Shown here one piece after another: positions 3,187 through 18,335 of a stretch of 64,000 bases of DNA. Below the pieces are notes generated by a model that saw only the letters and a list, made by a program, of their open reading frames with translations, had not been told where the DNA came from and searched no databases. How positions within the stretch are numbered: the stretch's first letter is position 1; the number at the start of each line of letters is the position of its first letter. Source of the DNA: Parcubacteria group bacterium Gr01-1014_38 (GTDB taxonomy: Bacteria > Patescibacteriota > Andersenbacteria > UBA10190 > CAIZMI01). Position numbers and translations under genes: made by a program. The DNA is taken from contig VMFP01000003.1 of assembly GCA_007376145.1 (NCBI GenBank), forward strand, positions 28,741-92,740, read 5' to 3'.

Positions 3187-3216
3187 TTGACAGTAGTTGC
3201 TTAGGTTGTTTAGGAT
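3187..3216 (+). promoter_or_regulatory. Sigma70-like promoter for the island defence operon
   Basis: -35 TTGACA (3187-3192), 18-nt spacer, -10 TAGGAT (3211-3216). RBS GAGG sits 4 nt before the ATG at 3225. Confidence 0.5.
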
Positions 3217-3224
3217 GAGGACTA

Positions 3225-3515
3225 ATGAACGACCTGAAACAAGTTGGTGATTTACCAGGAGCCCAACAGAAGGCGCTCTACACCATTCTCCGCCTGGATA
3301 AGCCTGCATTTCGGACGTCCGACGTCCGCAAGAAGATGGAAGGAACTGCCACGGGCAAGTCCGTCGGGGCGATTCTCAACGCTCTCTTCCGCAACGGCTA
3401 TCTCGAGAAGCTTCAAGGTGGTAGGGATAAACTCTGGAAGCTCTCTGAACAAGCTGAAACTGTCCGTGACGAGATCAGACGGAAAATTTCCGCCGTGAAG
3501 GTCTACTGGTCATGA
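3225..3515 (+). CDS. Small winged-helix-like putative regulator
   Basis: 96-aa ORF with helix-turn-helix-like content. Its stop overlaps the start of the downstream helicase (ATGA), indicating translational coupling. Confidence 0.4.
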   Translation: MNDLKQVGDLPGAQQKALYTILRLDKPAFRTSDVRKKMEGTATGKSVGAILNALFRNGYLEKLQGGRDKLWKLSEQAETVRDEIRRKISAVKVYWS

Positions 3516-6500
3516 ATACGGATCTCACATTCATCACGAACGAGAAAGGCCAGAGCCTGAAGGAGCGATTCGAGGTTCTCATCCGCGACACGAAATTCTT
3601 CGATGCCCTCGTGGGGTACTTCTACACGAGCGGCTTCCATGCTCTCTACAAGCCGCTGGAGAACACGCAGAAAATCCGCATTCTTATCGGGATCGGTACG
3701 AGCAAACAGACACTCGAACTCATCGAGCAATCTCGGCAGAAAACGTTCGAGCTCTCCCACGCCGAGACCAAGCAGGTGTTCTCCGATCTCGTCGCTGGCG
3801 AGATGAGCACCTCGGAGGACAACCGGCACGTCGAGGAAGGAGTACGGAAGTTCACCGAATGGCTTCGGAGCGGCAAGCTGGAAATCCGCGCGTATCCCGC
3901 GGCAGACATCCACGCGAAGGTCTACATCATGTCGTTCGCGGAGGGAGATCGTGATGCGGGGCGCGTTATTACTGGATCGAGCAACTTCACGCAGGCCGGC
4001 CTCGTGGAGAATCTCGAGTTCAATGTCGAACTGAAGAATCGCGCCGACTACGAGTTCGCCAAACAGAAGTTTGAGGAGCTCTGGAAGGACGCGGTGGACG
4101 TCAGGGAGAAGTATCTCGAAACCATCACGAGCCGCACTTGGCTGAACGACACAGTCACGCCCTACCAGCTCTATCTGAAGTTCCTCTACGAGTACTTCAA
4201 GGACGAGCTGCGCCCCGCGGAGGACATGCTCTTCCGGTACATCCCCTCTGAGTTCAAGCGGCTGGAGTACCAAGAGCAGGCCGTTCTGAACGCCAAGAAA
4301 ATCCTCGATGAGTACGGCGGTGCGTTCCTCTCCGACGTCGTCGGTCTCGGGAAGACCTACATGGCCGCCATGCTCGCGAGCCAGCTGGACGGGCGTACGC
4401 TGGTGATCGCGCCGCCGGTTCTCTTGGAGAAAGCGAACCCCGGTTCATGGCCGAGCGTCTTCCCTGATTTCCGCGTTGCTGCCGACTATGAATCTTTGGG
4501 AAAGCTCGATCACTTGCTCAAACGGGGCATCGAAAAATACCAGAACGTGTTTATCGACGAGGCGCATCGTTTTCGGACCGAGTCCAACGTCACGTATGAG
4601 AAGCTCGCGCGAATCTGCCGCGGCAAGCGCGTTGTTCTCGTGACGGCCACGCCGTACAACAACTCGCCCAAAGACGTCTTGAGTCAAATCAAGCTCTTCC
4701 AGACCGGCAAGCGGAGCACCATTCCGAATGTTCCCGACCTGGAATCGTTCTTTAGCCGCCTTGAAAAGCGAGTCCAGCACCTCGATCGCCAGCGGGATCG
4801 CGACGAGTATCTCCTGCGAACCAAGGAAAACGCGCGGGAAATCCGCGAGAAGGTACTGAAGTATCTGATGGTCCGCCGTACGCGGCGGGAGATTGAGCTG
4901 TACTTCGGCGAAGATCTGAAGCGACAGAATCTGCAATTTCCCACCGTAAGCGATCCGGAGCCCGTGTTCTACGAACTGAACGAAGATGAGGACGTAATTT
5001 TCTCCAAGACGATCGAGTTCGTCGCCAAGCAGTTCACGTATGCCCGCTATACGCCTCTCCTGTATTTCAAGGGAGACGTTCCGCAGGTCGATGAGCAGGG
5101 GCAGATCAACATGGGAAAGTTCATGAAGATCTTGCTCGTGAAGCGGCTCGAGAGCAGCTTCCACGCCTTCCGCAATACCGTCGACCGGTTCCTCCACTCC
5201 TACGAGCAGTTCCTCCGCGAACTGGAGCGCGGACACGTGTACGTCAGCAAAAAGTACATCCACAAGATCTTCGAGCTGATCGATGAGGGCGACGAAGAAG
5301 AGATCCAGCGACTCCTCGGTGAGGACAAGGCACAACGGTATACGGCGGCGGACTTTCGCCCACAGTTTAAGAAAGACCTCGAACACGACCTCGCGCTGCT
5401 CCGCGAGATCCGCGTCATGTGGCAACGGGTTACTCGCGACCCGAAGCTACTCACGCTTGTCGAGCTGCTCTCGACGCGTTCCTTATTGAAGAAGAGTAAG
5501 TTGATTCTCTTCACAGAGTCCAAGGAGACGGCCGAGTACATCGCCAAGCACCTCGAGCAGAAGTTCTCGGGCGAAATCCTCCTGTTCACCGGGGCGTCGA
5601 GCGCGCTCGTCCGGGAACGGGTTATTGAGAACTTCGACGCTCGCGCGCGCTTCCCGAAGGATGACTATCGTCTCCTCATCACGACGGAGGTGCTATCCGA
5701 GGGCGTGAACCTCCATCGCTCGAATGTCGTGCTCAATTACGACATTCCCTGGAACCCCACCCGTCTCATGCAGCGCGTCGGCCGTATCAATCGCGTCGAC
5801 ACGGCTTTTAACACCATCCACGCCTTCAATTTCTTCCCCACGCGACAGGCGGAGGATGCCATCAAGCTGCGGGCAGCGGCCGAGGCGAAGATCCACGCCT
5901 TCATTTCGCTCTTGGGAAGCGATGCGCGTCTCCTGACTGATGGCGAACCCATTGAATCTCACGAACTCTTCAGTCGCCTCGTCACGAAAGAGACGATTAC
6001 CGGAGAGCGTGAAGAGGAGGAGAGCGAGCTGAAGTATCTCCGCGTCATCCGCGACATCCGGGATCGAGAGCCCGACTTGTTCGATCAAATCAAACGGCTG
6101 CCGAAGAAAGCGCGGACGGCGCGGAAACATACAGAAGCGCAGCGCCGTCTGATTACATATTTCCGGAAAAGCAAGCTCCAGAAGTTCTTCGCAGTCGACG
6201 GAAGAGAATCCACGGAGCAGGACTTCCTCTCCGCAGCTCGGCTCCTTGAAGCTACGCCTCGCGAGACGCGAGAGTCTCTGGGACCGGATTTCTACGAATT
6301 ACTCGAGAAGAACAGACGCGCGTTTGAACTCGCAACCATTGAGGAAGGATTGCTCGAGTCCCAAGAGCGCAGCGGCCGAGATAGCGCGACCAATGTGCTC
6401 AAGATCCTCCGAGCGATCAAAGACCAGCGTCAGTTTACCGAGGAGCAAGAGGAGTACCTCAAGCTGGTCATGAAGAGGCTCGAACTGGGCGCAGTACCGA

Positions 6501-6694
6501 AGCAGACGACGAAAAAAGTCTTCCAGCAGCTCAGCCGTGAACTCAAGCACGGCATCAATCCGTTGAAACTCCTTGCGGTCGTACAACAGAGCGTCCCACG
6601 CGAATTCCTGGAAAGTCACCGCGCGGAAAGCGCGGCCGACGTGTCCGGCCCGCGCGAAGTCATTCTGTCCGAATACTTCACCACGACGCGATGA
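3512..6694 (+). CDS. PLD-family (HKD) nuclease / SNF2-family helicase fusion protein (restriction-like component)
   Basis: The N-terminus carries a single HKD motif ('HAKVYIM...GSSNFTQAGL'). It is followed by SNF2 motifs: GLGKT, 'FIDEAHRFR' (DEAH), helicase-C ('TEVLSEGVNL', 'QRVGRINR'). Confidence 0.85.
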   Translation: MNTDLTFITNEKGQSLKERFEVLIRDTKFFDALVGYFYTSGFHALYKPLENTQKIRILIGIGTSKQTLELIEQSRQKTFELSHAETKQVFSDLVAGEMSTSEDNRHVEEGVRKFTEWLRSGKLEIRAYPAADIHAKVYIMSFAEGDRDAGRVITGSSNFTQAGLVENLEFNVELKNRADYEFAKQKFEELWKDAVDVREKYLETITSRTWLNDTVTPYQLYLKFLYEYFKDELRPAEDMLFRYIPSEFKRLEYQEQAVLNAKKILDEYGGAFLSDVVGLGKTYMAAMLASQLDGRTLVIAPPVLLEKANPGSWPSVFPDFRVAADYESLGKLDHLLKRGIEKYQNVFIDEAHRFRTESNVTYEKLARICRGKRVVLVTATPYNNSPKDVLSQIKLFQTGKRSTIPNVPDLESFFSRLEKRVQHLDRQRDRDEYLLRTKENAREIREKVLKYLMVRRTRREIELYFGEDLKRQNLQFPTVSDPEPVFYELNEDEDVIFSKTIEFVAKQFTYARYTPLLYFKGDVPQVDEQGQINMGKFMKILLVKRLESSFHAFRNTVDRFLHSYEQFLRELERGHVYVSKKYIHKIFELIDEGDEEEIQRLLGEDKAQRYTAADFRPQFKKDLEHDLALLREIRVMWQRVTRDPKLLTLVELLSTRSLLKKSKLILFTESKETAEYIAKHLEQKFSGEILLFTGASSALVRERVIENFDARARFPKDDYRLLITTEVLSEGVNLHRSNVVLNYDIPWNPTRLMQRVGRINRVDTAFNTIHAFNFFPTRQAEDAIKLRAAAEAKIHAFISLLGSDARLLTDGEPIESHELFSRLVTKETITGEREEEESELKYLRVIRDIRDREPDLFDQIKRLPKKARTARKHTEAQRRLITYFRKSKLQKFFAVDGRESTEQDFLSAARLLEATPRETRESLGPDFYELLEKNRRAFELATIEEGLLESQERSGRDSATNVLKILRAIKDQRQFTEEQEEYLKLVMKRLELGAVPKQTTKKVFQQLSRELKHGINPLKLLAVVQQSVPREFLESHRAESAADVSGPREVILSEYFTTTR

Positions 6695-9600
6695 CGAGAG
6701 AACAAGCGAAGCAACTCGTTCAAGAAGCGCTCCAGAGGCCGTTCGACAAGGGGGGCTTTGTTCGTCTCGTGCGTAACCTCCTGAATCACTTGGAGGATGC
6801 CCCGTTTACCTACAGCGGCAACACGATGCGCCACGCGTATGCAAATGCCGTCAAGTCGCTCGAGCGCATTGGGAAGTACGAGGACCCAGAGGGGAGGAAA
6901 ATCGACGTGCTTGTCGTGAATCTCCGGCATGTCCACGCACTCGACCATGCCCGCACGATGCAACGGAACTTCATCGCGTGGTATCTCAATGGCAGTCGCG
7001 GAGACGTTTTCAAAGATGCAGCACTCGTCGCCTTCCATGCTGACGATGCGCCCGATTGGCGCTTCTCGCTCGTCCGCATGGACTATCGCCTCACGAAATC
7101 CGGCGAGAAAGTGAAGGCGGTCACGGAACTCACGCCAGCTCGGCGCTTTTCATTCTTGGTTGGGCAGCATGAAAAGACGCACACCGCGCAGAAGCAGCTC
7201 CTGCCAATCCTCGAGGATGACACACACGATCCGCTTCTTTCTAACCTCGAGCAGGCGTTCAGCATCGAGACAGTTACAAAGGAGTTCTTCGGGCGATACC
7301 GCGACCTCTTTCTTGAAACGAAGGAAGCGCTGGACAAAGTTGCCCGACGTGATAACGCCGTGCGAGAGGAGTTTTCCAATAAAGAAGTTGATACCACCGA
7401 CTTCGCCAAAAAACTTCTCGGGCAGATCGTCTTTCTCTACTTCCTCCAGAAGAAGGGGTGGTTCGGCGTGGCGCGGACGGGCAAGTGGGGTTCGGGGCCG
7501 AAGAATTTTCTTCGACAGCTTTTCGAGAAGAAGCATGGAGACTACAAGAACTTCTTCAATGATATTCTCGAACCCCTATTCTATGAGGCGCTCGCGAAGG
7601 AACGCGACAATGATTTTTACAGCCGCTTCAACTGCAAGATCCCATTTCTGAACGGTGGACTCTTCGATCCCATCTACAACTACGATTGGGTACACACGGA
7701 CATTCTTCTTCCCGATGAGTTGTTTTCAAATACTTTGCGGACAAAAGAAGGCGATATTGGGGCGGGCATTCTCGATGTCTTTGACCGCTATAACTTCACC
7801 GTCAAGGAAGACGAACCGCTGGAAAAGGACGTCGCCGTTGACCCGGAGATGCTCGGAAAGGTCTTCGAGAATCTCCTAGAAGTTAAAGACCGCAAGTCCA
7901 AAGGCACGTATTACACGCCGCGTGAGATTGTCCATTACATGTGCCAGGAAAGCCTGGTGAACTATTTGGCCGCAGAACTCGAGGGTATGGTGGGCCGAGA
8001 GGACATCGAGACGCTCATCAAGTATGGGGAGACAGCGGTTGAACACGACCGGCACGTTGAAGAAGGGGGAGAGACGCCGACGTACCAACACCGACTTCCC
8101 GAGGCGGTTCGCGCACGCGCGAAAGTGATCGACGACAAGCTCGCGGATATCCGCGTCTGTGATCCCGCGGTCGGCTCCGGAGCCTTTCCAGTCGGGATGA
8201 TGAACGAGGTTGTTCGGACACGCAACGCACTCACGAATTACGTTGAAGACAAAGATGATCGCTCAATGTACGAATTCAAGCGACACGCGATTCAGAGCTC
8301 TCTATATGGCGTGGACATCGATCCCGGCGCGGTCGAGATTGCCAAGCTCCGACTTTGGCTCTCGCTCGTCGTCGATGAAGAGGACATAAAAAAGATCAAG
8401 CCGCTACCCAACCTAGACTACAAAATGGTGCAAGGCGATTCGCTTTCGTCTGTTCAGAAGAATCTATTCAACCAACCGTTGTTTAATAAGCTTGAGGAGC
8501 TTAAACCCAAATTCTTTGAGGAGACCAATGCGCGCAAGAAGCAGGAGTATCGGCGGCAGATTGATGAACTTATTGATCAAATAACTAGAGGACACAAAGA
8601 TTTTGATTACGAAGTGTACTTCTCAGAAGTTTTCCACGAGAAGAAGGGGTTTGATGTTGCAATCGCAAATCCTCCATATCTCCAGATTCAGAAGATGGCA
8701 AAATCAGAAAAAGAGCGTTTCAGAAAGATCTTCAGAACTTTTTCAAAGACCGGAGACATTTACTGCTTGTTCTACGAACGGGCCATTCAGATATTAAAAC
8801 AAGACGGTACCTTGACCTTTATCACGTCGAATTCCTGGTTACGGGCAAGATACGGTGAGCTACTGAGAAAACTTTTGATTGAAAAGGCAAATCCTGTCCG
8901 GCTAATAAATTATGAGGATGCGCGGATGTTTGAACATGCTATCGTCGAAACCAACATCCTAATCGCTCAAAAATCCCAGTGGAATGGCCGTCTCCATGCC
9001 ACCACCGTCAAAAATAACAACTTAAATGCTTTGCCACTTGACGAGTATGTAAAGGGAAATACCTCCGTTATTAGTGACTTGGGAGTCGATAGCTGGAATA
9101 TCGCCGACAAAGCATCGTCTGGCCTAAAGAAGAAAATTGAAAGCCACTCAGTTTCGCTAAAAGACCTGAACGTTTCAGTTTATCGTGGTATTACAACGGG
9201 TTTCGTCGAGGCATTTGTTGTCGATGAGGAGATCAGGAGAAATTTAATCACTCAAGATGAAAAAAGCGCGGAAGTAATTAAGCCTGTCTTACGCGGGCAA
9301 GACGCAGGTAGATATTTCTATGCTTGGAAAGGACTTTGGCTAATAACGCTGCAATCAGGATGGACGAATAGAAATCGGGGCGGGAAAAGCCCGGAAAGTT
9401 TTTTTGCTGAAACCTATCCCGCAGTACACGAATATCTTAAAGGAGTAGGCTCCAAGATAAAAATTGGAGCGATTAAGGCGAAGGGAAAAGGATTATATGG
9501 TCGTGATGACCAAGGTGATTATTGGTGGGAACTCAGGGATTGTGATTTTTACTCCGAGTTTGAGAAAGAAAAAGTTATCTGGGGAGAGTTGTCTGATAAA

Positions 9601-9996
9601 CCGAAATTTACCTATGACGATCAGAAGTATTACGCACTTGATACCCTATTCGTAATGACGGGCGAATCTCTGAAATACTTGTTAGCAATTCTCAATTCGA
9701 AAATTTCCGAATGGTACTTCGCCCAAATCTCGACGAGTTCTGGCATGGGAACCACTAGATGGAAGAAGTACAAAATTGAACAGTTTCCAATAAAAAAGAT
9801 ATCTAAGGAGGAACAAAAGCCGATTGTACACCTAATCGATAAAATACTTTCCCTAACGATGGGCGAGGACTATTCGGCAAGCGATACGAAGCAAGCCAAA
9901 GTCCGCGAATACGAAAGACAAATCGACCAGCTCGTCTATAAACTCTACGGTCTTACACCAGAGGAGATTTCAATTGTTGAGCAAGGCAATGGCTAA
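6691..9996 (+). CDS. Eco57I/PglX-like gamma-class N6-adenine DNA methyltransferase with C-terminal specificity region
   Basis: Motif I 'DPAVGSGAFPV', motif IV 'ANPPY', and an N-terminal 'IVFLYFLQKKGWF' helix typical of type IIG/BREX PglX-like methyltransferases. No nuclease domain is present. The start overlaps the helicase stop (ATGA). Confidence 0.85.
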   Translation: MTREQAKQLVQEALQRPFDKGGFVRLVRNLLNHLEDAPFTYSGNTMRHAYANAVKSLERIGKYEDPEGRKIDVLVVNLRHVHALDHARTMQRNFIAWYLNGSRGDVFKDAALVAFHADDAPDWRFSLVRMDYRLTKSGEKVKAVTELTPARRFSFLVGQHEKTHTAQKQLLPILEDDTHDPLLSNLEQAFSIETVTKEFFGRYRDLFLETKEALDKVARRDNAVREEFSNKEVDTTDFAKKLLGQIVFLYFLQKKGWFGVARTGKWGSGPKNFLRQLFEKKHGDYKNFFNDILEPLFYEALAKERDNDFYSRFNCKIPFLNGGLFDPIYNYDWVHTDILLPDELFSNTLRTKEGDIGAGILDVFDRYNFTVKEDEPLEKDVAVDPEMLGKVFENLLEVKDRKSKGTYYTPREIVHYMCQESLVNYLAAELEGMVGREDIETLIKYGETAVEHDRHVEEGGETPTYQHRLPEAVRARAKVIDDKLADIRVCDPAVGSGAFPVGMMNEVVRTRNALTNYVEDKDDRSMYEFKRHAIQSSLYGVDIDPGAVEIAKLRLWLSLVVDEEDIKKIKPLPNLDYKMVQGDSLSSVQKNLFNQPLFNKLEELKPKFFEETNARKKQEYRRQIDELIDQITRGHKDFDYEVYFSEVFHEKKGFDVAIANPPYLQIQKMAKSEKERFRKIFRTFSKTGDIYCLFYERAIQILKQDGTLTFITSNSWLRARYGELLRKLLIEKANPVRLINYEDARMFEHAIVETNILIAQKSQWNGRLHATTVKNNNLNALPLDEYVKGNTSVISDLGVDSWNIADKASSGLKKKIESHSVSLKDLNVSVYRGITTGFVEAFVVDEEIRRNLITQDEKSAEVIKPVLRGQDAGRYFYAWKGLWLITLQSGWTNRNRGGKSPESFFAETYPAVHEYLKGVGSKIKIGAIKAKGKGLYGRDDQGDYWWELRDCDFYSEFEKEKVIWGELSDKPKFTYDDQKYYALDTLFVMTGESLKYLLAILNSKISEWYFAQISTSSGMGTTRWKKYKIEQFPIKKISKEEQKPIVHLIDKILSLTMGEDYSASDTKQAKVREYERQIDQLVYKLYGLTPEEISIVEQGNG

Positions 9997-11032
9997 GCGT
10001 CTTACTATTATTCTCGGTGCCGGTGCATCCTATAGCGTCAATCCGGATGGAAAGGCACTTGATACCCCTGGTTATCGACCACCTCTCGCGCATGAGATTT
10101 TTCGAGGTAGTCGAGAATTTAGAGTTATTTTGAATAAGTATCCACTCGCGGAACTCCTCGCAAGTGATATCGATCGCCGCATAAAACAGAACCGACAAGG
10201 AGTTGGGCTCGAACAAATCTTGCGTAGTTACGAGCAGGAAGTAACGGCGGGACGTGATTCACACATCGCCCGTCAGTTTTTGCAAATCCCTCTCTATCTT
10301 AATGAATTGTTCGGAGAGATAACGACTCACTTTACCAAACAGCCCGATGAGTACAACAACCTCGTGAATATAGCGCTCGGTCACCTCGATGAAGTTCTGT
10401 TTCTGACTCTGAATTACGACAATCTTTTTGAGATAGCGTTATCTCGAATCTCTAGCGTAGATTTTTCTGCAGAGCATCATTATACGCACGATGACAAATG
10501 GAAGCTCGTTAAACTTCACGGGTCGGTCAACTGGTATCGCCAGTTTTCGGGCTATCAGATTACAGAAGCAAGTGACAAGGAGTATTTTGCCCAACTGCAG
10601 CGCACTCCTCTTCCTCTTCAGCTTGACGATCGATTCATTTTAACGAGCCTACACGAGCATGCTCGGAAGTACATCGGGAACGCTCCTGTATATCCAGCAC
10701 TCACGGTACCCGTCGATGGAAAGTATCAACTGAATTCGCCGCCCGAGCATATTCAGTCCGCGACGGATTTTCTCTCAGGGTGCGAAAACTACCTCATTAT
10801 CGGCACGAGTGGTCGTGATCGCGATTTACTTGACCTGCTCCAGCAGCACGCACGGCAAGGGAAAGTTTTGGTTGTTGGGAGAGAGCAAGAAAATGCCGAG
10901 CGCACGAAGAGGAATTTTCAGGAAGTTGTCCCACAATTTCGATCTGATATGTCTGTGTATTCTCACCCGAGAGGATTCAGTGAATTTGTTGACAGCGGAG
11001 CACTGGACGAATTCTTACATAAGATCGCGTAA
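9986..11032 (+). CDS. SIR2-like (SIR2_2 family) NAD-dependent domain protein
   Basis: N-terminal 'TIILGAGASYS' Rossmann motif and 'KLHGSVNW' His motif typical of defence-associated SIR2 domains. The ATG at 9986 overlaps the 3' end of the methyltransferase. Confidence 0.7.
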   Translation, partial: AMAKRLTIILGAGASYSVNPDGKALDTPGYRPPLAHEIFRGSREFRVILNKYPLAELLASDIDRRIKQNRQGVGLEQILRSYEQEVTAGRDSHIARQFLQIPLYLNELFGEITTHFTKQPDEYNNLVNIALGHLDEVLFLTLNYDNLFEIALSRISSVDFSAEHHYTHDDKWKLVKLHGSVNWYRQFSGYQITEASDKEYFAQLQRTPLPLQLDDRFILTSLHEHARKYIGNAPVYPALTVPVDGKYQLNSPPEHIQSATDFLSGCENYLIIGTSGRDRDLLDLLQQHARQGKVLVVGREQENAERTKRNFQEVVPQFRSDMSVYSHPRGFSEFVDSGALDEFLHKIA

Positions 11033-11042
11033 ACATTCTGTC

Positions 11043-11372
11043 ATGTATCATCGTATATTTTGGGAACGGAAGGTCGAAGAAATACCTTGTCGTTGCTGTG
11101 GCTCGTTTAAAGCGACGCTCCGTTACAGTAAAGACGCTGAAAAGCTTTTTAAGGAAAAACTGTTTGAGCAATTTCGCGAGCACGCATACTGGAATCACTG
11201 GTATAACAAACACTACAACTGCGTGCGCTGCGGCCAATGGATTCCACCTGCTGAACGGGAACTAATCGTGGCCCATGGTTACCCCATCGATAATGTCCAT
11301 CCCGATTATTGCAAGGAGGAACAGCCCCATCTTCTTCGCATACACCGTCGCTGCCTAGATGAGTTATCGTAA
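11043..11372 (+). CDS. Small HNH-type endonuclease-like Zn-finger protein
   Basis: CxxC...CxxC pairs and 'AHGYPIDNVHPDYC' are consistent with the HNH fold. The start is taken at the internal ATG (MYHRI...) just after the SIR2 stop rather than the long overlapping upstream extension. Confidence 0.45.
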   Translation: MYHRIFWERKVEEIPCRCCGSFKATLRYSKDAEKLFKEKLFEQFREHAYWNHWYNKHYNCVRCGQWIPPAERELIVAHGYPIDNVHPDYCKEEQPHLLRIHRRCLDELS

Positions 11373-11377
11373 GTCGT

Positions 11378-11881
11378 ATGCCACAGTGCACTTCCTGCGG
11401 ATCGAGCGATTTCACACAGTACGGCCCTTACGCGGGCAGAATTGTTGCTGGAGGTGAAGTTCCTGATCTTAAGGATCAGATCATTGCGAGAAAATGTTCA
11501 GCCTGTGAATATCTTCAACTGGAAAAGCAGCTTACATCGGGCGTGAGAGTTGCCACAGCGCATATTGTAAAGGAAGGTCGTGCTGAGGACGTGCAACGGA
11601 TCATCGTCCGCTTCCTCTCCGACGAGCCGGATCAAAACGCTTTAATAAAGGAGTTCTACATCTGGCTTACCCAAGTATTCGTCGAGGATTTATTGAGACT
11701 TAAGGAGAGTGCAGAGGCACATGATTTTCTTCAAGCTGCAATTTTGGTTGCTGGATCGGAGTATAGAAAGGCGCATCAAGTGCCGAAGTATGGCGGAGTA
11801 GATTGCAGGGAGGAGTTTGGCGGCTGTCGGATCGTCTCCCGTCCGGAGACGTACAACTATCCTATCAAGCCGGATGTGTGA
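11378..11881 (+). CDS. Hypothetical protein with N-terminal zinc ribbon
   Basis: CTSCGS...CSACEY motif. Tightly spaced in the same plus-strand array. Confidence 0.4.
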   Translation: MPQCTSCGSSDFTQYGPYAGRIVAGGEVPDLKDQIIARKCSACEYLQLEKQLTSGVRVATAHIVKEGRAEDVQRIIVRFLSDEPDQNALIKEFYIWLTQVFVEDLLRLKESAEAHDFLQAAILVAGSEYRKAHQVPKYGGVDCREEFGGCRIVSRPETYNYPIKPDV

Positions 11882-11924
11882 ATTTTCCCACGATTTTTCT
11901 GCCTTATAACTGAACCAAAAGCAC

Positions 11925-13136
11925 ATGATAGCGCGCAGAGATACACCAAACTATAGAATATACGCTCTAGTCATTGGAGAGATACTTCGGCCAGGAAAAC
12001 TATTTGATTGCGAGATTAAAGAAATGAGTTTTGTAGAACAAGAAAAGAGAAGATTTTCCCCCATTGAGAGTGTTTTTTCTGGGAGGCACGGTGGAGATAG
12101 CAAAACTTACGCCACGCGCCTGCCTTACGTGGATCCGATGAGAATTAAGTCGGAACGTGTGGTTGTGTGCGATATTGATGAGGATGACGTAAAAGCTGCT
12201 CTAGGAGGCGCGATTAGACGAATTGAGAGGCTGTGCCGATTTTTGTCGGTCGCATATGTCGAAGATGCGAAGAAGAATTTTAGGAGAGAGCGCTTTGGAC
12301 TAACGCCATACCTCTATCAAGTAAACAAAGTCTACTCACTTGATACCGGCGGAAAGGAGCTAGATGCAGGCTTCAAGTTGGAAAGTGACTATGTTTATCT
12401 ACCGAATAGGCCTGAGCTCAACCAGTGGCGGCACAAAGAAACCGAGAAATTTCTGGAAGATATTTTTATTTTTCATGACGAGACATTAGAGCGAGCAATT
12501 AAGTATCTGTATCGATCCTCCATCGGACACTTTGTGGGAGATAGTCCTGAAAAAAGAGCTCTCGACCACATAAAATCAATCGAAATCATCTTGAATTCTC
12601 TATCAAGTAAAAGAAAGTTCGAGGGCAAGCTTAACGAGGCTGCTAACAAAATTGATCTCACCGAGAACGAGAAAGAAGCAATAAAGAAACTTTGGGAGAA
12701 TAGGTCGCGTTATGGTGACGTTGCCCATCCTTCTCCCTTCGATCAAGTTGAACGGTACCCAAACCAGTTCCCATTACCCAGTAATGTTCGATATCCGGGA
12801 GGAATCCATGACTCAATCGCGATCAATGTTTGTTTGAAGTACTTCTCCTACAGGAGAAGTTTATATGTCATAGACATAGAGAAGCCTTTTCGTGGTGAGG
12901 GCGTATCCAGCGACAGACAGGACGAAGAGGATATTATCGGTAATGTAAACCCCCAGTGGGAGAGCAACCACTTGTTTTTTAGGACTTCCGAAAAGGAAGA
13001 GAAAAAGCTTACGAAAAAAATACGACAGGCATTCGCTCGCGAATATGGAATTAGCGAAGGTCGTATTCTCAATGTTGTCGTTAAGCGGATTAGGAATAAG
13101 GAGAGCGTTATTGTAAGAGTGCAACCAACTGCGTGA
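11925..13136 (+). CDS. Hypothetical protein, possible HEPN-like (Rx5H) Abi-type effector
   Basis: 403-aa ORF. The 'RSRYGDVAHP' segment fits the Rx4-6H HEPN signature. No other recognisable domain. Confidence 0.4.
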   Translation: MIARRDTPNYRIYALVIGEILRPGKLFDCEIKEMSFVEQEKRRFSPIESVFSGRHGGDSKTYATRLPYVDPMRIKSERVVVCDIDEDDVKAALGGAIRRIERLCRFLSVAYVEDAKKNFRRERFGLTPYLYQVNKVYSLDTGGKELDAGFKLESDYVYLPNRPELNQWRHKETEKFLEDIFIFHDETLERAIKYLYRSSIGHFVGDSPEKRALDHIKSIEIILNSLSSKRKFEGKLNEAANKIDLTENEKEAIKKLWENRSRYGDVAHPSPFDQVERYPNQFPLPSNVRYPGGIHDSIAINVCLKYFSYRRSLYVIDIEKPFRGEGVSSDRQDEEDIIGNVNPQWESNHLFFRTSEKEEKKLTKKIRQAFAREYGISEGRILNVVVKRIRNKESVIVRVQPTA

Positions 13137-13166
13137 TAAAGCACCCTATTGGATTAGTGGAGCACC

Positions 13167-13643
13167 ATGGAAATCCTCGACGAGCAGCAAATCATTGAAA
13201 GGCGCCGGGAAACCGAGCAAGGCCTTGTGGATCTCCTCGAAGAAACGGGAAGCGATTTCGGTTTGGATGACATCAAGGAGATCATCTTCAACGAAGACGG
13301 ACAGGACGACCTCACCGACATCATTGCGATGTTCGATACCGGTCAGGGCGCGGCCGAACTTCAGGATGTTCTCGACCTCGTCACCGACGCCTGGAATTGC
13401 TTTCCACACAAATCTTTAGGCGGCCTCTCGCCGGCGGAGAAGGTGCTGGCATATCAGCAACGCAGCGACGGAGCGCCGGACCACCCGTCCGCGAATACCG
13501 TAGGAGGTGTTGGGGTATTCGTTTGTCGATGCGACGATCCCCACTGCGCGAAGTGCCTTCTCGTCAATTGCGAAGACAATCACTGCTCCGTCCACACGAA
13601 GGAACGAAAAGAGGCGTTCCGCAGAACATACCGCCAGCGATAG
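13167..13643 (+). CDS. Acidic hypothetical protein
   Basis: 158 aa with a strongly D/E-rich N-terminal half and a Cys/His-rich C-terminus. Last gene of the plus-strand array. Confidence 0.35.
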   Translation: MEILDEQQIIERRRETEQGLVDLLEETGSDFGLDDIKEIIFNEDGQDDLTDIIAMFDTGQGAAELQDVLDLVTDAWNCFPHKSLGGLSPAEKVLAYQQRSDGAPDHPSANTVGGVGVFVCRCDDPHCAKCLLVNCEDNHCSVHTKERKEAFRRTYRQR

Positions 13644-14120
13644 CTACGCGGTGGGCAGTAACCCGCCTTGCAAGAGAGGAAGTTTGATTAAATCACGGAG
13701 CTGATCGGGATTTTTGGCAAGATCAACCTCAACCCACGAGGCGAAGGCGTTATGTCGCTGAAGCACGGTCTTCTCCTCTTCAAACACATCGTCGTCAAAC
13801 CAGAGGAAATTTCGTGAGAAATCAATCGCTTCTGTTTTCAGCGTCGTCCAATTAGTAGGCTTCACTTGCCGTAACAGAGATAGAGTCTCAGAGGGTAGGT
13901 ATCGTGACAGAATACGGAGAGGCTGGGCCGTATCTCCTTTGCAATGCGTCGTGAGCCAATAGGTTTGATAGCGCTCGACGACGTACCGAATGAACGCATC
14001 AACATGCCGCGCTGGCTGCTTATCGTTTGCCAACAAGACTCCGTCGATGTCGAGATAAATGTCCATATGCTCATCATAGACCTTTCCGCCGCGTTCTCCG
14101 TAGTCTAGAGTATGATGCAA
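13644..14120 (-). CDS. HAD-superfamily hydrolase (nucleotidase/phosphatase-like)
   Basis: Motif I 'IYLDIDGVLL' (DxDG) and a late acidic motif 'FLWFDDD'. Confidence 0.55.
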   Translation of the reverse strand: MHHTLDYGERGGKVYDEHMDIYLDIDGVLLANDKQPARHVDAFIRYVVERYQTYWLTTHCKGDTAQPLRILSRYLPSETLSLLRQVKPTNWTTLKTEAIDFSRNFLWFDDDVFEEEKTVLQRHNAFASWVEVDLAKNPDQLRDLIKLPLLQGGLLPTA

Positions 14121-14140
14121 ATGATCAGCCGAATTCGCTT

Positions 14141-14632
14141 ATGACAGGATTCATTGTTGCGGCACTTATTGTTGTTGGCGGCATCGTCCTATATGCATTG
14201 CGACGCATGTTTCGCCACGGCGGGCGAATCACCAAGTATTTCGAAAATGCCGTGACCGTCTATATCTGGCTGGGTGAAGAAGATGCGCGGATTGCAGCCG
14301 TCACTGCCGCCAAGGTAGCGGCGAAAAGGCAGAGAAAACTCATGGCAGGGTATCTGAAACTACACGCAGAGCTATCCGAAATTTCGATTATTCCGGAGGC
14401 ACAGGAATCCATCCAAACCCTTCGAGAGCTCATAGATGACATTGAAGCCAAGGAGTGGAGTATACGGGACATCATGAAGGCAAAGGATAAACTCGAAGCA
14501 AGCAATCCTGAATATCTCAGGGCACTGAATAGAGCAGATAGTGGGATTTTTCCTCGAAAGTATCCGCGACTATTTGCGGCAAAGAGTATTCGCGAGACTG
14601 CTGCAATCGCCAAGAAAATGCAGAGCAGTTAA
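14141..14632 (+). CDS. Hypothetical single-pass membrane protein
   Basis: 'MTGFIVAALIVVGGIVLYAL' TM helix then a charged coiled-coil-like region. The start is chosen downstream of the overlap with the opposing HAD gene. Confidence 0.35.
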   Translation: MTGFIVAALIVVGGIVLYALRRMFRHGGRITKYFENAVTVYIWLGEEDARIAAVTAAKVAAKRQRKLMAGYLKLHAELSEISIIPEAQESIQTLRELIDDIEAKEWSIRDIMKAKDKLEASNPEYLRALNRADSGIFPRKYPRLFAAKSIRETAAIAKKMQSS

Positions 14633-14643
14633 GCGTTCATTCT

Positions 14644-15258
14644 GTGGCCACAGTAACTGAAAAATCGCTCGCGGAATTCAAACGAATCTACAAGAAGGAA
14701 TACGGCAAAGATATAGGCGACGCCGAGGCGCGCGACGCCGCGCAGCGCTTGCTGGACGTGTTCAAGCTTCTTCTTGATGTGGATAAGAAGGAGCGAGCAC
14801 GACAACTCAAGCTCAAGGAATCCCCAAAAGGATACCACCTCACCGACGGCACCTACAGCTGTTGTGTCTGCGGGAAGCAGGTCTCCGGTGAAGGAAGTTG
14901 GTACGACAAGCACGGCATTAAGTGCCTTCTCTGCCAGCGGGCGGTCGAGCAGCGAAAGATTCCGGTCAGCGTCTGCACGAACAAAGACAGCTGGTATGCC
15001 ACGTGGGAACTCGCGTACTACTACAAACTGAAATCACCGACGATCCGCAAGCTTGTTCGCAACGGCACCCTGAAAGCCCGCATCGTGCCGCACGAGAATG
15101 GAAGCCCATACTTTTCCGTCTTTCTGGTCAAGGACAACCTCGGTGTTCTTCAACCGAAACCGAAGCCGAAGATCGTTCACGTAGACGAGCGAACCATCAC
15201 CGTCGAGTCCCCGGGATTAACGCTGGGGATTACCAGCCAAAATCTACCCCATCCGTGA
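14644..15258 (+). CDS. Hypothetical Zn-finger protein
   Basis: 204-aa ORF (apparent GTG start) with CCVCGK...CLLCQ motifs. Confidence 0.4.
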   Translation: MATVTEKSLAEFKRIYKKEYGKDIGDAEARDAAQRLLDVFKLLLDVDKKERARQLKLKESPKGYHLTDGTYSCCVCGKQVSGEGSWYDKHGIKCLLCQRAVEQRKIPVSVCTNKDSWYATWELAYYYKLKSPTIRKLVRNGTLKARIVPHENGSPYFSVFLVKDNLGVLQPKPKPKIVHVDERTITVESPGLTLGITSQNLPHP

Positions 15259-15330
15259 TTAAGGCATCTTTACAGAAAGGCCACTCTCTACAATAATTCA
15301 TTGTTCTTGGCGGTACTAATTTTTAGAAAA

Positions 15331-15354
15331 CGCCTGCATGGTGACATGCAGGCG
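15331..15354 (-). terminator. Rho-independent terminator (perfect 10-bp stem)
   Basis: cgcctgcatg-gtga-catgcaggcg hairpin, with a T-run on the minus strand (plus-strand ttttagaaaa immediately 5'). It lies between convergent genes. Confidence 0.6.
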
Positions 15355-15369
15355 TGAAGTTACCTTGAT

Positions 15370-15939
15370 CTATACGGATCTATATGACTCAAAGAGCTTC
15401 GCGATGGATTCCATCACGCTGATCTCTGTCTCGACATCGCACAGATCATACTTTCCAGAGAAGCCGTCGATGACCTTCGAGACGTAGGCTATCAGCCTGT
15501 CTGACGAAAACAAGTCGATCCTGGCGACAAAGAGACTTTTCCTGTTTTCTTCTATCAGTTTCCGAACCGAGAGCGGCACCTTGTCAGATAACATCGGCGG
15601 ATGCAGGAGGATGATCGGCTTTGCGTGTAAGATCGCATAGGCCGTTTCAATGCTCGCGCTTTCACCGATATATCCGCGATGCCTTCCGTGCTTGTTATGC
15701 ACGATGTGAACAGGATTTGTTCTGATCGCCGCGAAGAAAGCCAACTCGACATCGTAGAACGACTGGTCGGCGGTAGGCATAAACGTAACCGGCGTGCCTT
15801 GGTATTCTCCGACGATCTTGTCGCTGAATGGGAACTGTACCTCGATCCCCGCTGCAACCAATCTTCTCTTCAGGTTGAAAATTCCCCTATCTCTCTTGGA
15901 GAATTTCCCGCTCATTTGTGTTTTCATCGTGTCCGGCAT
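15370..15939 (-). CDS. Nucleoside 2-deoxyribosyltransferase/DNPH1-like fold protein (paralog A)
   Basis: 'GYIGESASIETAYAILHAKPIILL' aligns with 'NYIGGNSFLEIGYAHIVGKKIFL' of the 17557-17979 protein. It carries the conserved Glu typical of N-glycosidic-bond enzymes of this fold. Confidence 0.45.
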   Translation of the reverse strand: MPDTMKTQMSGKFSKRDRGIFNLKRRLVAAGIEVQFPFSDKIVGEYQGTPVTFMPTADQSFYDVELAFFAAIRTNPVHIVHNKHGRHRGYIGESASIETAYAILHAKPIILLHPPMLSDKVPLSVRKLIEENRKSLFVARIDLFSSDRLIAYVSKVIDGFSGKYDLCDVETEISVMESIAKLFESYRSV

Positions 15940-16006
15940 TACACGACCTCCTTTCTGTTTGAGGCTAAGAAAAAGGCGGCGTGGAAACCCAGCCGCCCAA
16001 TGTTGC

Positions 16007-16663
16007 CTACAAAGCCGTGATTTCTAGCTCCTTAAAGAGATCGGCGGGAACGGCGAATGTCGTCTTCGCTTTGCTCCTCAAGTCGGAAGGCCTGCCGAGT
16101 ATTTCTTCGGCATGGTCAATCGACCCATACCAAAGAGACTTGAACTTCGCCTCTCGCATGCCCTGCATGTCCATATGAGCGACATGAAGCACGCCGGGAT
16201 CAGATTCTTTCATAACTTGTCGGTACTCCGGCTTCGGCTTGCACCGAAATGTAATTTCGGTAAAGAGCGCCTGACGGGTTTTGGGCAGAAAATCGAATCC
16301 TCCGAAGCCGAGCATCCAAGACACCTCTTCTCCGACTCGCACGCGGTATCCGAGGCAGATGCTGTCTTCGCATTCTTCCGCCGATCCCAGAAAGATGCTG
16401 TTGACCTTTTTGAAGGCAAGCAGGAGTTCCTTGAGATCGTCTCGCTTCAAGACTTTCGGAAAGATGATGCTTTTGGTGGAGATTTTCTCGTCGCTGATCG
16501 CTTCTTGGATGAGCGACTCCATTTGTTGCGGATCAACATCGGCAACAGAGAAGTACCACCCGAACTTTTCAGGATCGGAGGCGGCGTGAGCCGCAAAGAG
16601 ACACCCCGCATTTCCTTGCCGGTAGAACGCAAGCTGGTCCTCGACGATGCGTCTCTCAAGCAT
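16007..16663 (-). CDS. Hypothetical protein
   Basis: 218-aa ORF in the same minus-strand cluster. No confidently recognised domain. Confidence 0.4.
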   Translation of the reverse strand: MLERRIVEDQLAFYRQGNAGCLFAAHAASDPEKFGWYFSVADVDPQQMESLIQEAISDEKISTKSIIFPKVLKRDDLKELLLAFKKVNSIFLGSAEECEDSICLGYRVRVGEEVSWMLGFGGFDFLPKTRQALFTEITFRCKPKPEYRQVMKESDPGVLHVAHMDMQGMREAKFKSLWYGSIDHAEEILGRPSDLRSKAKTTFAVPADLFKELEITAL

Positions 16664-16797
16664 ATGAACCTCTCTTTCTGTGGGTTGTTTTTCCAGAGAA
16701 CAAACGGGCCTACATCATAAGCCTATTACCCATACTGTCAACATCTTGGGCGATGATACATAAACCCTCTGCCAAAGAGGGTTTATGAGTCGGCGGG

Positions 16798-17553: not shown

Positions 17554-17556
17554 ATA

Positions 17557-17979: not shown

Positions 17980-18112
17980 ACTTACTTGGCTTCACACATC
18001 AATAAAGGGACATTTCTTTTCTCGTCCGTGATGAGTTCACATTCCACAAGGCGCAGGGATTGATTGCTATTTCCCATGCAGGAAGCGTGTCATAACACAG
18101 CGATCTCGTCCA

Positions 18113-18306: not shown

Positions 18307-18335
18307 ACATGGTTAGATAGTTTTAAAATGATTTT

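What the first reader, a model, noticed from the sequence alone, without database searches (positions are those of the whole stretch)
9986..11372. SIR2-like protein and small HNH nuclease overlapping the 3' end of the methyltransferase gene
The SIR2 ATG (9986) lies 11 nt inside the methyltransferase ORF, and the HNH ORF starts 11 nt after the SIR2 stop. This implies co-transcription with the R-M-like module. Defence SIR2 domains act as NAD+-depleting effectors. Coupling one to a PLD/SNF2 - adenine-methyltransferase module plus an HNH nuclease would be an unusual composite, possibly two layered systems sharing one promoter.
Basis: partly seen in the sequence, partly recalled or inferred. Interest (0 to 1): 0.65.

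Follow-up and report, generated by a model that had tools for sequence, protein, structure and literature searches.

The report
Stand-alone SIR2 gene behind a restriction-modification-like operon
A real, catalytically intact defence-type SIR2 (predicted NAD+-degrading) gene sits at the tail of a restriction-modification-like operon in a Parcubacteria genome, but it is a free-standing gene with no fixed partner, and the small gene after it is a zinc-finger protein, not a demonstrable HNH nuclease.

Summary
The SIR2 ORF is real. Its ATG is at 9989, not 9986, its stop is at 11030-11032, and it overlaps the methyltransferase stop by 8 nt. It passes the Pfam SIR2_2 threshold. GAGAS, N142-Y-D and K175-x-H177-G are invariant across 34 relatives. 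The AF2 model (pLDDT 93) best matches the SIR2 subunit of SIR2-HerA.

It belongs to a large unnamed family of about 345-aa single-domain proteins, with about 2,000 clusters at E<=1e-30. In 74 distinct loci no neighbour is conserved. Only the window and one type I R-M locus place it directly behind an R-M methyltransferase or specificity gene. DNA homology to the closest relative stops 3 nt after the SIR2 stop.

The 109-aa ORF (11043-11372) is a real gene of a small zinc-finger family found so far only in candidate-phyla-radiation (CPR) and metagenome sequences. No profile calls it HNH. The would-be catalytic His is Asp in relatives, and the only HNH fold match is sub-threshold. Elsewhere this family sits directly upstream of Shedu, SIR2 or unknown genes.

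The PLD-SNF2 + Eco57I-type methyltransferase pair recurs on plasmids with different guest genes: TIR, ATPase+HNH, DUF262, Abi.

Most likely this is an autonomous NADase defence gene co-transcribed with, but not mechanistically tied to, the R-M-like module. That is an ordinary defence-island layout.

The parts
9989..11032 (+). Stand-alone SIR2_2-type protein of 347 aa, a predicted NAD+ glycohydrolase. NAD-binding loop G10-A-G-A-S14; catalytic N142 (in LNYD) and H177 (in KLHGS).
   Evidence: Pfam SIR2_2 35.3 bits. Invariant columns in 34- and 35-sequence alignments. AF2 pLDDT 93.2. Foldseek best hits are the SIR2 of SIR2-HerA, E 1.5e-9. Family of about 2,000 50%-identity clusters, all single-domain.
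11043..11372 (+). 109-aa double zinc-finger (treble-clef-like) protein, a divergent member of a small family seen so far only in CPR and metagenome sequences. Not a demonstrable HNH nuclease. By analogy with relatives it may belong with the genes downstream of it rather than with SIR2.
   Evidence: Family of 20 clusters. Invariant C16, C19, H52, W53, H57, C60, C63, G64, H101, C104, while H78 is Asp in relatives. No HNH profile hit. Fold match to the Gme HNH nickase only at E 0.24. Relatives lie immediately upstream of SIR2 (L007), Shedu SduA (L147) or an 815-aa unknown (L134).
6691..9996 (+). 1101-aa N6-adenine DNA methyltransferase (Eco57I/N6_Mtase + TaqI_C specificity domain). Its stop codon overlaps the SIR2 start. 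This is context, not part of the SIR2 unit.
   Evidence: Pfam Eco57I 1e-42 and TaqI_C 6e-16. PADLOC REase_MTase_IIG 1140 bits. BREX PglX models are far below cut-off.
3512..6694 (+). 1060-aa PLD (HKD) nuclease-like domain fused to an SNF2-type helicase. It is the likely restriction/translocase partner of the methyltransferase (context).
   Evidence: Pfam PLDc_2, SNF2-rel_dom, Helicase_C. PADLOC 'HKD+Snf2' 2e-51. The same gene pair occurs on Prevotella and Parabacteroides replicons.
11378..11881 (+). 167-aa protein with an N-terminal CxxC...CxxC motif and no known family. A weak homologue lies directly upstream of the SIR2 gene in locus L001.
   Evidence: blastp/phmmer E about 2e-5, 34% identity over 70 aa. 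No Pfam, PADLOC or PHROG hit.
11925..13643 (+). Two further same-strand ORFs of unknown function: 403 aa (11925-13136) and 158 aa (13167-13643). They close the co-directional gene string.
   Evidence: ORF list. No hits in Pfam, PADLOC, NCBIfam or PHROGs.
3187..3216 (+). Best sigma-70-like promoter match on the + strand (TTGACA-18-TAGGAT). It lies upstream of a 96-aa ORF (3225-3515) that overlaps the PLD-SNF2 start, so it is a candidate operon promoter.
   Evidence: Consensus scan, 10 of 12 matches. The total number of such sites is not above the shuffled expectation, so the evidence is weak.

Best explanation
The 347-aa protein is an autonomous, defence-type SIR2 (SIR2_2, or 'SIRim') enzyme. 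It most likely hydrolyses NAD+ when triggered by infection and so arrests the infected cell (abortive infection). It is a single-gene cargo that has landed at the 3' end of an R-M-like operon (PLD-SNF2 helicase/nuclease plus an Eco57I-type adenine methyltransferase). It is probably co-transcribed and translationally coupled with that operon without depending on it mechanistically. The 109-aa gene after it is a small zinc-finger protein, possibly a regulator or adaptor, from a family that accompanies different defence genes in candidate-phyla-radiation (CPR) genomes. It is not a specific partner of SIR2 and not a demonstrable nuclease.

Shown: fold, catalytic motifs, gene layout, lack of conserved neighbours.

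Inferred: NADase activity, defence role, co-transcription, trigger.
For: SIR2 identity and active site:
- Pfam SIR2_2 is above threshold and is the only Pfam family reported.
- GAGA, N142-Y-D and K175-x-H177-G are invariant across relatives of 26-65% identity.
- These motifs align with the TTNYD/KLHGS catalytic motifs of PsSIR2 (8w9l) and ThsA (6lhx).
- The AF2 model is confident. It is closest to the SIR2 of SIR2-HerA (E 1.5e-9), ahead of the best-scoring sirtuin (2e-7) and the remaining sirtuins (about 1e-6).

Autonomy:
- About 2,000 50%-identity clusters match at E<=1e-30, and the top 150 are all 263-398 aa and single-domain.
- In 74 distinct loci no neighbour cluster spans more than 3 loci.
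- No Pfam family occurs in more than 2 of 115 upstream neighbours or more than 1 of 112 downstream neighbours.
- There is no conserved small ORF either.
- Nucleotide homology to the closest relative (83% aa identity) ends 3 nt after the stop codon.

Defence or mobile-element context in the close clade:
- Type I R-M followed by SIR2 and DUF4238.
- EcoRI-type methylase, GmrSD-HNH and DUF2130.
- A prophage-like repressor region.
- An IS200 transposase.
- A T4SS element with a second SIR2_2 gene.

Published support:
- The SIR2_2-like 'SIRim' clade holds all known antiphage SIR2s, and its neighbourhoods are 12-fold enriched in defence systems (bioRxiv 10.1101/2024.09.18.613514).
- A single-gene 'sole-Sir2' is an NADase, and a homologue protects against T2 and T4 (bioRxiv 10.1101/2024.12.27.630466).
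- SIR2-HerA systems sit between or downstream of R-M systems in S. thermophilus islands (PMC11514479).

The same R-M-like module carries other guest genes elsewhere.
Against: - There is no biochemical or phage-challenge data for any member of this family.
- The protein has no sensor domain and no conserved partner, so how it would be kept off and switched on is unknown.
- Many distant family members (Acidobacteriota, Dehalococcoidia and others) are flanked by housekeeping genes rather than recognisable defence genes.
- PADLOC models for known SIR2 systems match only weakly and partially (best E 5e-7).
- Co-transcription is inferred from spacing only.
Confidence: 0.6

Rival explanations
1. R-M-coupled effector (guard model). 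SIR2 would be held inactive by the PLD-SNF2/methyltransferase complex and fire when restriction is blocked or overwhelmed, as the PrrC anticodon nuclease does for the EcoprrI type I R-M system (the PrrC comparison is from my own knowledge, not tested here).
For: - The SIR2 start overlaps the methyltransferase stop by 8 nt.
- In L004/L054 a 62%-identical SIR2 starts 3 nt after hsdS of a type I R-M operon.
- In Parabacteroides the homologous SNF2/methyltransferase pair is followed by a 304-aa unknown and then a TIR-domain protein, another NADase-type effector.
Against: - Only 2 of 115 upstream neighbours in 74 loci are methyltransferases.
- The other close-clade loci and the distant members sit behind unrelated genes.
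- Homology to the nearest relative ends at the gene boundary.
- The same slot elsewhere holds autonomous systems or unrelated genes: ATPase+HNH, DUF262, Abi.
Confidence: 0.12
2. Multi-gene SIR2 system. SIR2 would work with one or both small neighbours, the 109-aa zinc-finger protein and the 167-aa protein, as sensor, regulator or antitoxin.
For: - A homologue of the 109-aa protein lies directly upstream of SIR2 with a 4-nt overlap in L007.
- A homologue of the 167-aa protein lies 1 nt upstream of SIR2 in L001.
- All three genes are adjacent in the window.
Against: - Each association is seen once outside the window.
- Iterative searches over 79 family loci found no more cases.
- The closest SIR2 relative has an unrelated 430-aa gene downstream.
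- The zinc-finger family also precedes Shedu and unknown genes, which fits a generic regulator or hotspot-flanking gene.
Confidence: 0.12
3. Non-defence enzyme. The family would be an NAD-dependent protein deacylase, ADP-ribosyltransferase or metabolic regulator, and its position behind the R-M-like genes would be incidental.
For: - The family is large and uniform in length.
- Many members are flanked by housekeeping genes such as thiolase, EF-P, NusB, RecA and GlnA.
- There are no hits in IMG/VR, plasmids or PHROGs.
Against: - It matches SIR2_2, and no other Pfam family is reported.
- Its best structural matches are antiphage SIR2s.
- All known antiphage SIR2s fall in this subfamily and all classical sirtuins in the other.
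- Its taxonomic spread is wide across unrelated phyla, and close-clade members sit in mobile or defence contexts.
Confidence: 0.12
4. The 109-aa protein is an active, highly divergent HNH nuclease.
For: - Its layout recalls the zinc-stabilised HNH core: CxxCG, then a beta-strand ending in A-H78, then a HxxC helix.
- The top Foldseek PDB hit is the Gme HNH nickase 4h9d, probability 0.69.
Against: - That hit is not significant (E 0.24, TM 0.33-0.43).
- There is no HNH profile hit at E<=10.
- hhalign probability is 6% or less.
- H78 is Asp in relatives, and no conserved H or N follows the second zinc pair.
Confidence: 0.05

Closest known systems
sole-Sir2 (single-gene CRISPR-supervised system; bioRxiv 10.1101/2024.12.27.630466)
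   Same: A single small SIR2-domain protein acts without a dedicated partner. The protein is an NADase, and a homologue protects E. coli from T2 and T4.
   Different: sole-Sir2 is about 440 aa, with a non-SIR2 N-terminal region proposed as the sensor and a C-terminal SIR2 domain. The window protein is 347 aa, its NAD-binding GAGAS loop is at residues 10-14, and it has no extra domain. Sequence relatedness was not tested because the sole-Sir2 sequence is not held.
SIR2 subunit of SIR2-HerA (Nezha; PDB 8sub, 8wld, 8w9l, 8j4u)
   Same: It gives the best structural and PDB-profile match (Foldseek E 1.5e-9; hmmsearch 3e-8). It has the same TxNYD and KLHGS catalytic motifs and a similar size.
   Different: No HerA ATPase is found next to the window gene or recurrently next to its 74 relatives. 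TM-score is only about 0.5 and sequence identity 14-18%.
Thoeris ThsA, DSR1/DSR2, SPARSA SIR2-APAZ, Kongming KomC
   Same: They have the SIR2_2-type NADase domain with the same catalytic N and H.
   Different: All carry a sensor domain or an obligatory partner: SLOG/Macro plus ThsB, a C-terminal region of over 600 aa, APAZ plus a short pAgo, or KomA/KomB. None is present here. PADLOC matches are partial and weak.
PrrC-EcoprrI (effector embedded in an R-M operon; from my own knowledge)
   Same: A suicide-type effector gene sits inside or behind an R-M operon and is co-expressed with it.
   Different: PrrC linkage to its R-M system is conserved and physical. Here the linkage is seen in only 2 of 74 loci, and no interaction has been tested.
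R-M-like modules of a large Eco57I/TaqI_C-type N6-adenine methyltransferase with a large helicase on plasmids (Prevotella, Parabacteroides, Nostoc, Lactococcus, Deinococcus)
   Same: In Prevotella (L139) and Parabacteroides (L138) the pair is verified as the window's: the helicase matches the window PLD-SNF2 protein at 30-33% identity and the methyltransferase has the Eco57I domain. The gene order is the same, and variable guest genes lie inside or after the module. In Nostoc, Lactococcus and Deinococcus a related methyltransferase is paired with a large annotated helicase, again with guest genes.
   Different: The guests differ: TIR, AAA_23 ATPase+HNH_5, DUF262, Abi. None of the guest proteins tested matches the SIR2 profile. 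For Nostoc, Lactococcus and Deinococcus the helicases were not compared with the window PLD-SNF2 protein.

Membership tests
SIR2_2 / 'SIRim' defence-type SIR2 superfamily | Profile match above the curated threshold, with no classical-sirtuin family reported | tested here: met
   PF13289 scores 35.3 bits against a cut-off of 24.5, and it is the only Pfam family reported.
SIR2_2 / 'SIRim' defence-type SIR2 superfamily | NAD-binding GAGxS loop plus catalytic Asn (xNYD) and His (LHGS) | tested here: met
   G10-A-G-A, N142-Y-D and K175-x-H177-G are invariant in 34 sequences. They align to the ThsA and PsSIR2 motifs.
SIR2_2 / 'SIRim' defence-type SIR2 superfamily | NAD+ glycohydrolase activity and phage protection | not testable with these tools
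   Needs an enzyme assay and a phage challenge.
SIR2-HerA (Nezha) | Adjacent HerA-type ATPase partner | tested here: not met
   No HerA/DUF87 protein is among the window neighbours. No family occurs in more than 2 of 115 upstream or more than 1 of 112 downstream neighbours.
Thoeris ThsA / DSR1-DSR2 / SPARSA | Fused sensor domain (SLOG/Macro, long C-terminal region, APAZ) or a ThsB/pAgo neighbour | tested here: not met
   The 347-aa protein is filled entirely by the SIR2 fold. The top family members are all 263-398 aa. There is no TIR or pAgo neighbour.
sole-Sir2 | Single gene without a dedicated partner | tested here: met
   No conserved neighbour in 74 loci.
sole-Sir2 | About 440 aa with a non-SIR2 N-terminal region; sequence homology to the published proteins | tested here: inconclusive
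   The architecture differs because there is no N-terminal extension. Sequence comparison was not possible because the published sequences are not held.
HNH endonuclease (109-aa ORF) | Match to an HNH profile (PF01844, HNH_5 and related) | tested here: not met
   No HNH hit at E<=10 in Pfam. None in PADLOC, NCBIfam or PHROGs, nor in the PDB profile search. hhalign probability is 6% and 0.1% against true HNH proteins.
HNH endonuclease (109-aa ORF) | Conserved catalytic His at the end of beta-1 and a metal-ligand His/Asn after the second zinc pair | tested here: not met
   H78 of the window protein is Asp in relatives (VNDG). Residue 105 after C104 is a non-conserved, mostly aliphatic position.
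HNH endonuclease (109-aa ORF) | beta-beta-alpha-metal fold | tested here: inconclusive
   The AF2 model (pLDDT 78) has a CxxC knuckle, two strands and a helix. The best PDB hit is the Gme HNH nickase, but only at E 0.24 and TM 0.33-0.43.
BREX (PglX methyltransferase) | PglX equivalog score and accompanying BrxA/B/C/L and PglZ genes | tested here: not met
   The best BREX PglX model scores 103 bits against a cut-off of 500. No BREX proteins are among the scanned neighbours.
DISARM class 1 | DrmD at equivalog score plus DrmA/DrmB (DUF1998) | tested here: not met
   DrmD scores 122 bits against a cut-off of 610. No DUF1998 or DrmA/DrmB hits were found in the neighbours.
R-M-guard effector (PrrC-like arrangement) | Conserved genetic linkage of the effector to an R-M operon | tested here: not met
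   Linkage appears only in the window and L004/L054 among 74 loci.

The most novel reading that the evidence does not exclude
The PLD-SNF2/methyltransferase module may act as the sensor for interchangeable NAD+-degrading effectors encoded just downstream: SIR2 in this Parcubacteria genome and TIR in Parabacteroides. That would make it an R-M system with a built-in abortive-infection back-up that fires when restriction fails or is inhibited. A related reading is that the small CPR zinc-finger protein is a dedicated regulator placed ahead of diverse defence cargo (SIR2, Shedu, unknown genes).
Probability: 0.1. Interest if true: 0.7.

Novelty: new member of a known kind. Interest (0 to 1): 0.35.

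Why it matters
If the protein is an active NADase, this would be a minimal SIR2 defence effector: about 345 aa, no sensor domain and no partner. It would come from a family with about 2,000 sequence clusters that no curated defence database names. It would also sit in candidate-phyla-radiation bacteria, whose immunity is little studied. How such a bare enzyme is kept silent and then triggered is an open question, and this family could make it testable. The specific claim of the finding, a SIR2+HNH unit coupled to an R-M module, does not hold up. What remains is an ordinary defence-island arrangement.

Tried and rejected
- Single-sequence scans of viral and metagenome contigs with the SIR2 protein found nothing because non-conserved peptides were chosen.
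- IMG/VR scans for SIR2 gave one marginal locus.
- IMG/VR scans for the zinc-finger family gave none, so 'phage gene' is not supported by that collection.
- tblastn of SIR2 against plasmids gave no match.
- PHROGs gave no hit for SIR2 or for the eight other ORFs scanned between 11043 and 15939. Only the tenth, ORF 16007-16663(-), matched, to phrog_34888.
- blastp clustering of 397 neighbours gave no cluster spanning more than 3 loci.
- Clustering of ORFs of 30 aa or more within 900 nt of SIR2 gave mostly antisense-ORF artefacts inside the SIR2 gene. The only flanking-ORF clusters spanned 2-3 loci.
- jackhmmer with the 109-, 167- and 403-aa proteins over 79 family loci found one extra locus each for the first two and none for the third.
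- The 403-aa protein compared with the 430-aa gene downstream of the closest SIR2 relative showed no similarity.
- The SIR2 HMM run against guest genes of homologous R-M-like modules gave no hits, so the Parabacteroides 304-aa protein is not a hidden SIR2.
- No tRNA lies in 1-30000 to mark an integration site.
- Rejected labels: PglX/BREX, DISARM, SIR2-HerA, Thoeris, DSR, SPARSA, HNH (see the membership tests).
Full report
**Source and layout.** The SIR2 ORF is 100% identical to a hypothetical protein of 'Parcubacteria group bacterium Gr01-1014_38', a candidate-phyla-radiation (CPR) metagenome-assembled genome. On the + strand the genes run as follows:

| Coordinates | Product |
|---|---|
| 3225-3515 | 96-aa ORF |
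| 3512-6694 | PLD (HKD) + SNF2 helicase, 1060 aa |
| 6691-9996 | N6-adenine methyltransferase, 1101 aa, with Eco57I, N6_Mtase and TaqI_C domains |
| 9989-11032 | SIR2-like protein, 347 aa |
| 11043-11372 | 109-aa ORF |
| 11378-11881 | 167-aa ORF |
| 11925-13136 | 403-aa ORF |
| 13167-13643 | 158-aa ORF |

A convergent gene follows on the minus strand. Junctions after the methyltransferase are an 8-nt overlap and then spacers of 10, 5, 43 and 30 nt. No convincing intrinsic terminator lies between these genes. The best promoter-like site on this strand is at 3187-3216, although such sites are no more frequent than in shuffled sequence. Co-transcription is therefore plausible but only inferred.

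**Observation check.** The sequence shows the SIR2 ATG at 9989-9991, not 9986. That start reproduces the MAK(K/R)LTIILGAGAS N-terminus of homologues. The overlap with the methyltransferase ORF (stop TAA 9994-9996) is 8 nt. The small ORF starts at 11043, 10 nt after the SIR2 stop, and ends at 11372 as stated.

**The SIR2 protein.**
- Pfam SIR2_2 (PF13289) is the only Pfam family reported, at 35.3 bits against a cut-off of 24.5. NCBIfam has no model for it. PADLOC's SIR2 models for known systems match only short stretches, best E 5e-7.
- In an alignment of 34 relatives at 26-65% identity, the invariant columns include G10-A-G-A, N142-Y143-D144 and K175/H177/G178. The 35-sequence close-clade alignment agrees.
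- A profile search of PDB sequences aligns these motifs with the TTNYD and KLHGS motifs of PsSIR2 (8w9l, E 3e-8) and ThsA (6lhx). N142 and H177 are therefore the catalytic pair.
- The AF2 model is confident: pLDDT 93.2, pTM 0.92. It is a Rossmann core with a helical insertion at residues 42-132 and no extra domain.
- Foldseek against the PDB ranks SIR2 subunits of SIR2-HerA first (E 1.5e-9, TM about 0.5), ahead of classical sirtuins (best 2e-7, the rest about 1e-6).
A phylogenomic study places all known antiphage SIR2s in this 'SIRim' subfamily and finds its neighbourhoods 12-fold enriched for defence systems (10.1101/2024.09.18.613514).

**Family and context.**
- A full HMMER search of 1.84 billion representatives finds 7,724 proteins at E<=1e-3 and 1,993 at E<=1e-30. 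The top 150 are all 263-398 aa and match end to end. This is a large family with a fixed single-domain architecture.
- I gathered loci by exact-protein look-ups and by pattern scans of genomes and metagenomes. This gave 74 distinct loci.
- Clustering 397 neighbouring proteins found no cluster spanning more than 3 loci.
- Pfam scans of the two upstream and the two downstream neighbours found no family in more than 2 of 115 or more than 1 of 112 proteins. The only two methyltransferase neighbours are the window and L054.
- A search for conserved small ORFs gave mostly antisense artefacts and no flanking ORF shared by more than 3 loci.
- Close-clade contexts are mobile or defence-like but all different:
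  - hsdR-hsdM-hsdS, then SIR2, then DUF4238 (DUF4238 matches a PADLOC candidate model).
  - EcoRI-type methylase, GmrSD-HNH, DUF2130, then SIR2.
  - A prophage-like repressor region.
  - An IS200 transposase region.
  - A conjugative-element region with a second, convergent SIR2_2 gene.
  - A C5 methylase/Vsr region and a LexA-methylase region.
- The closest relative (83% aa, 77% nt identity) shares DNA homology only up to 3 nt past the SIR2 stop. It has an unrelated 430-aa gene downstream.
- The SIR2 gene alone is the conserved unit.

**The 109-aa ORF.**
- It is a real gene. A first search found only the protein itself. However, phmmer found a homologue immediately upstream of SIR2 in L007, and a two-sequence profile then recovered 20 clusters of 89-128 aa (mostly 108-117) from CPR and metagenome sources, none with a Pfam domain.
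- Conserved positions are C16, C19, H52, W53, H57, C60, C63, G64, Y89, L98, H101 and C104, which is enough for two zinc sites.
- The window protein's H78, which would be the HNH general base, is Asp in relatives (VNDG). No conserved His or Asn follows the second zinc pair.
- No HNH profile matches, even at E<=10. The PDB profile search finds no HNH.
- The AF2 model (pLDDT 78) shows a zinc-knuckle hairpin, a long helix, and a CxxC-beta-beta-alpha unit. Its best PDB match is the small Gme HNH nickase, but only at E 0.24 and TM 0.33-0.43.
- I therefore read it as a treble-clef or HNH-like zinc finger without a conserved catalytic set.
- Its relatives are not SIR2-specific. They lie directly upstream of, and overlapping, SIR2 (L007), a strong Shedu SduA (L147; PADLOC 2.6e-84) and an 815-aa unknown (L134). 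They also lie downstream of a 309-aa unknown that follows an MTase-Mrr fusion (L130), and in a prophage early region beside an S24 repressor (L135/136).
- By analogy, in the window it may head the 167/403/158-aa genes rather than pair with SIR2.

**The 167-aa protein.** It has one weak homologue (E about 2e-5), and that homologue lies 1 nt upstream of SIR2 in L001. This observation and the L007 case keep a 'small-partner' rival alive at low probability.

**The R-M-like module.**
- The methyltransferase is not PglX: the BREX model scores 103 bits against a cut-off of 500. It matches PADLOC's type IIG model at 1140 bits.
- The helicase matches PADLOC 'HKD+Snf2' (2e-51). DISARM DrmD is far below cut-off.
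- tblastn against plasmid records shows the pair is a recurrent module. It carries variable guest genes:

| Replicon (locus) | Gene order |
|---|---|
| Prevotella (L139) | PLD-SNF2, Schlafen/AlbA_2 protein, methyltransferase, then AAA_23 ATPase + HNH_5 |
| Parabacteroides (L138) | HTH, AlbA_2, SNF2, methyltransferase, 304-aa unknown, TIR protein |
| Nostoc | methyltransferase, two unknowns, helicase |
| Lactococcus | helicase, methyltransferase, Abi protein |
| Deinococcus | methyltransferase, DUF262, two unknowns, helicase |
| P. nigrescens | a module with an invertase and methylase fragments |

- For L138 and L139 I verified the pair by tblastn and Pfam. For the other rows the helicases are identified only by their record annotation and were not compared with the window protein.
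- None of the guest proteins tested matches the SIR2 profile.
- A SIR2 gene behind this module is thus one instance of a general habit: defence genes lodge in or after R-M operons. This has also been described for SIR2-HerA in S. thermophilus islands (PMC11514479).
- The TIR protein in the equivalent position in Parabacteroides is the one observation that hints at an interchangeable NADase effector. It is a single case.

**Mechanism and verdict.**
- The most likely reading (about 0.6) is an autonomous NAD+-depleting abortive-infection gene, co-transcribed with but not dependent on the R-M-like module. A published precedent for a partner-less small SIR2 is 'sole-Sir2', an NADase whose homologue protects against T2 and T4 (10.1101/2024.12.27.630466). 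That protein has an N-terminal extension that the window protein lacks.
- The trigger and the off-state are unknown. With no sensor domain, direct activation by a phage component or control by oligomerisation are the candidates. This is inference only.
- The rivals are R-M-guard coupling, a small-partner system and a non-defence enzyme, each at about 0.1.
- What remains of interest is a large, unnamed, minimal SIR2 family and a CPR zinc-finger family that accompanies varied defence cargo.

Noticed in passing
window 7400-8600 (inside the methyltransferase ORF 6691-9996) through about 20200: G+C drops from about 0.55-0.58 to about 0.40-0.47 at around 8200, in the middle of an intact 1101-aa ORF, and stays low to about 20.2 kb. 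The N-terminal half of the methyltransferase is 34% identical to the Prevotella homologue, but the C-terminal half only 23.5%. This suggests a recombination or transfer junction that swapped the catalytic/specificity half together with the downstream cargo.
   Followed up: partly
L138 (NZ_OY725763) 5204-16787; L139 (NC_022111) 7992-18945; L143, L144, L145, L146: An R-M-like module of a large Eco57I/TaqI_C-type methyltransferase plus a large helicase recurs on plasmids. It is often preceded by an HTH and/or a Schlafen-AlbA_2 protein. It carries different guest genes: a TIR protein, AAA_23 ATPase+HNH_5 (Septu-like), DUF262, Abi, and unknowns. The PLD-SNF2 identity of the helicase was verified only for L138 and L139. 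P. nigrescens has an invertase plus inverted methylase fragments, which looks like a shufflon.
   Followed up: partly
L147 1838-3488; L134 629-3420; L007 7672-9041; L130 4071-5354; L135 5001-5351: A zinc-finger family of about 110 aa, found so far only in CPR and metagenome sequences and with no Pfam domain, repeatedly sits just upstream of different cargo genes and overlaps them: Shedu SduA, SIR2, and an 815-aa unknown. In L134 and L147 the cargo is followed by the same kind of MerR/HTH_17 gene on the opposite strand, which suggests a cargo hotspot or a generic defence regulator.
   Followed up: partly
window 11378-11881 and L001 9526-9999: The 167-aa window protein has a weak homologue (34% over 70 aa, E about 2e-5) that lies 1 nt upstream of the SIR2 gene in L001. 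No other members were found.
   Followed up: partly
window 2699-2992 (- strand): A 97-aa ORF resembles (53% over 47 aa) part of the ParB_N-N6_N4 methyltransferase of the prophage-like element in L007. It may be a gene remnant just upstream of the R-M-like operon.
   Followed up: no
L126 8001-9137 (+) and 9280-10296 (-): Two convergent SIR2_2 genes lie side by side next to type IV secretion/conjugation genes and a small PLD protein.
   Followed up: no
window 16007-19292: The low-GC block also holds a phrog_34888 homologue (16007-16663, -), a UDG-superfamily protein (16798-17553, -) and an Mrr_cat restriction-type protein (18336-19292, +). This fits a defence or mobile island.
   Followed up: no
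window 3225-3515: A 96-aa ORF overlaps the PLD-SNF2 start and sits just downstream of the best promoter-like site. It has only a sub-threshold winged-helix (Penicillinase_R) match (E 0.059). It may correspond to the HTH regulators that precede homologous modules in Prevotella, Parabacteroides and Nostoc.
   Followed up: no
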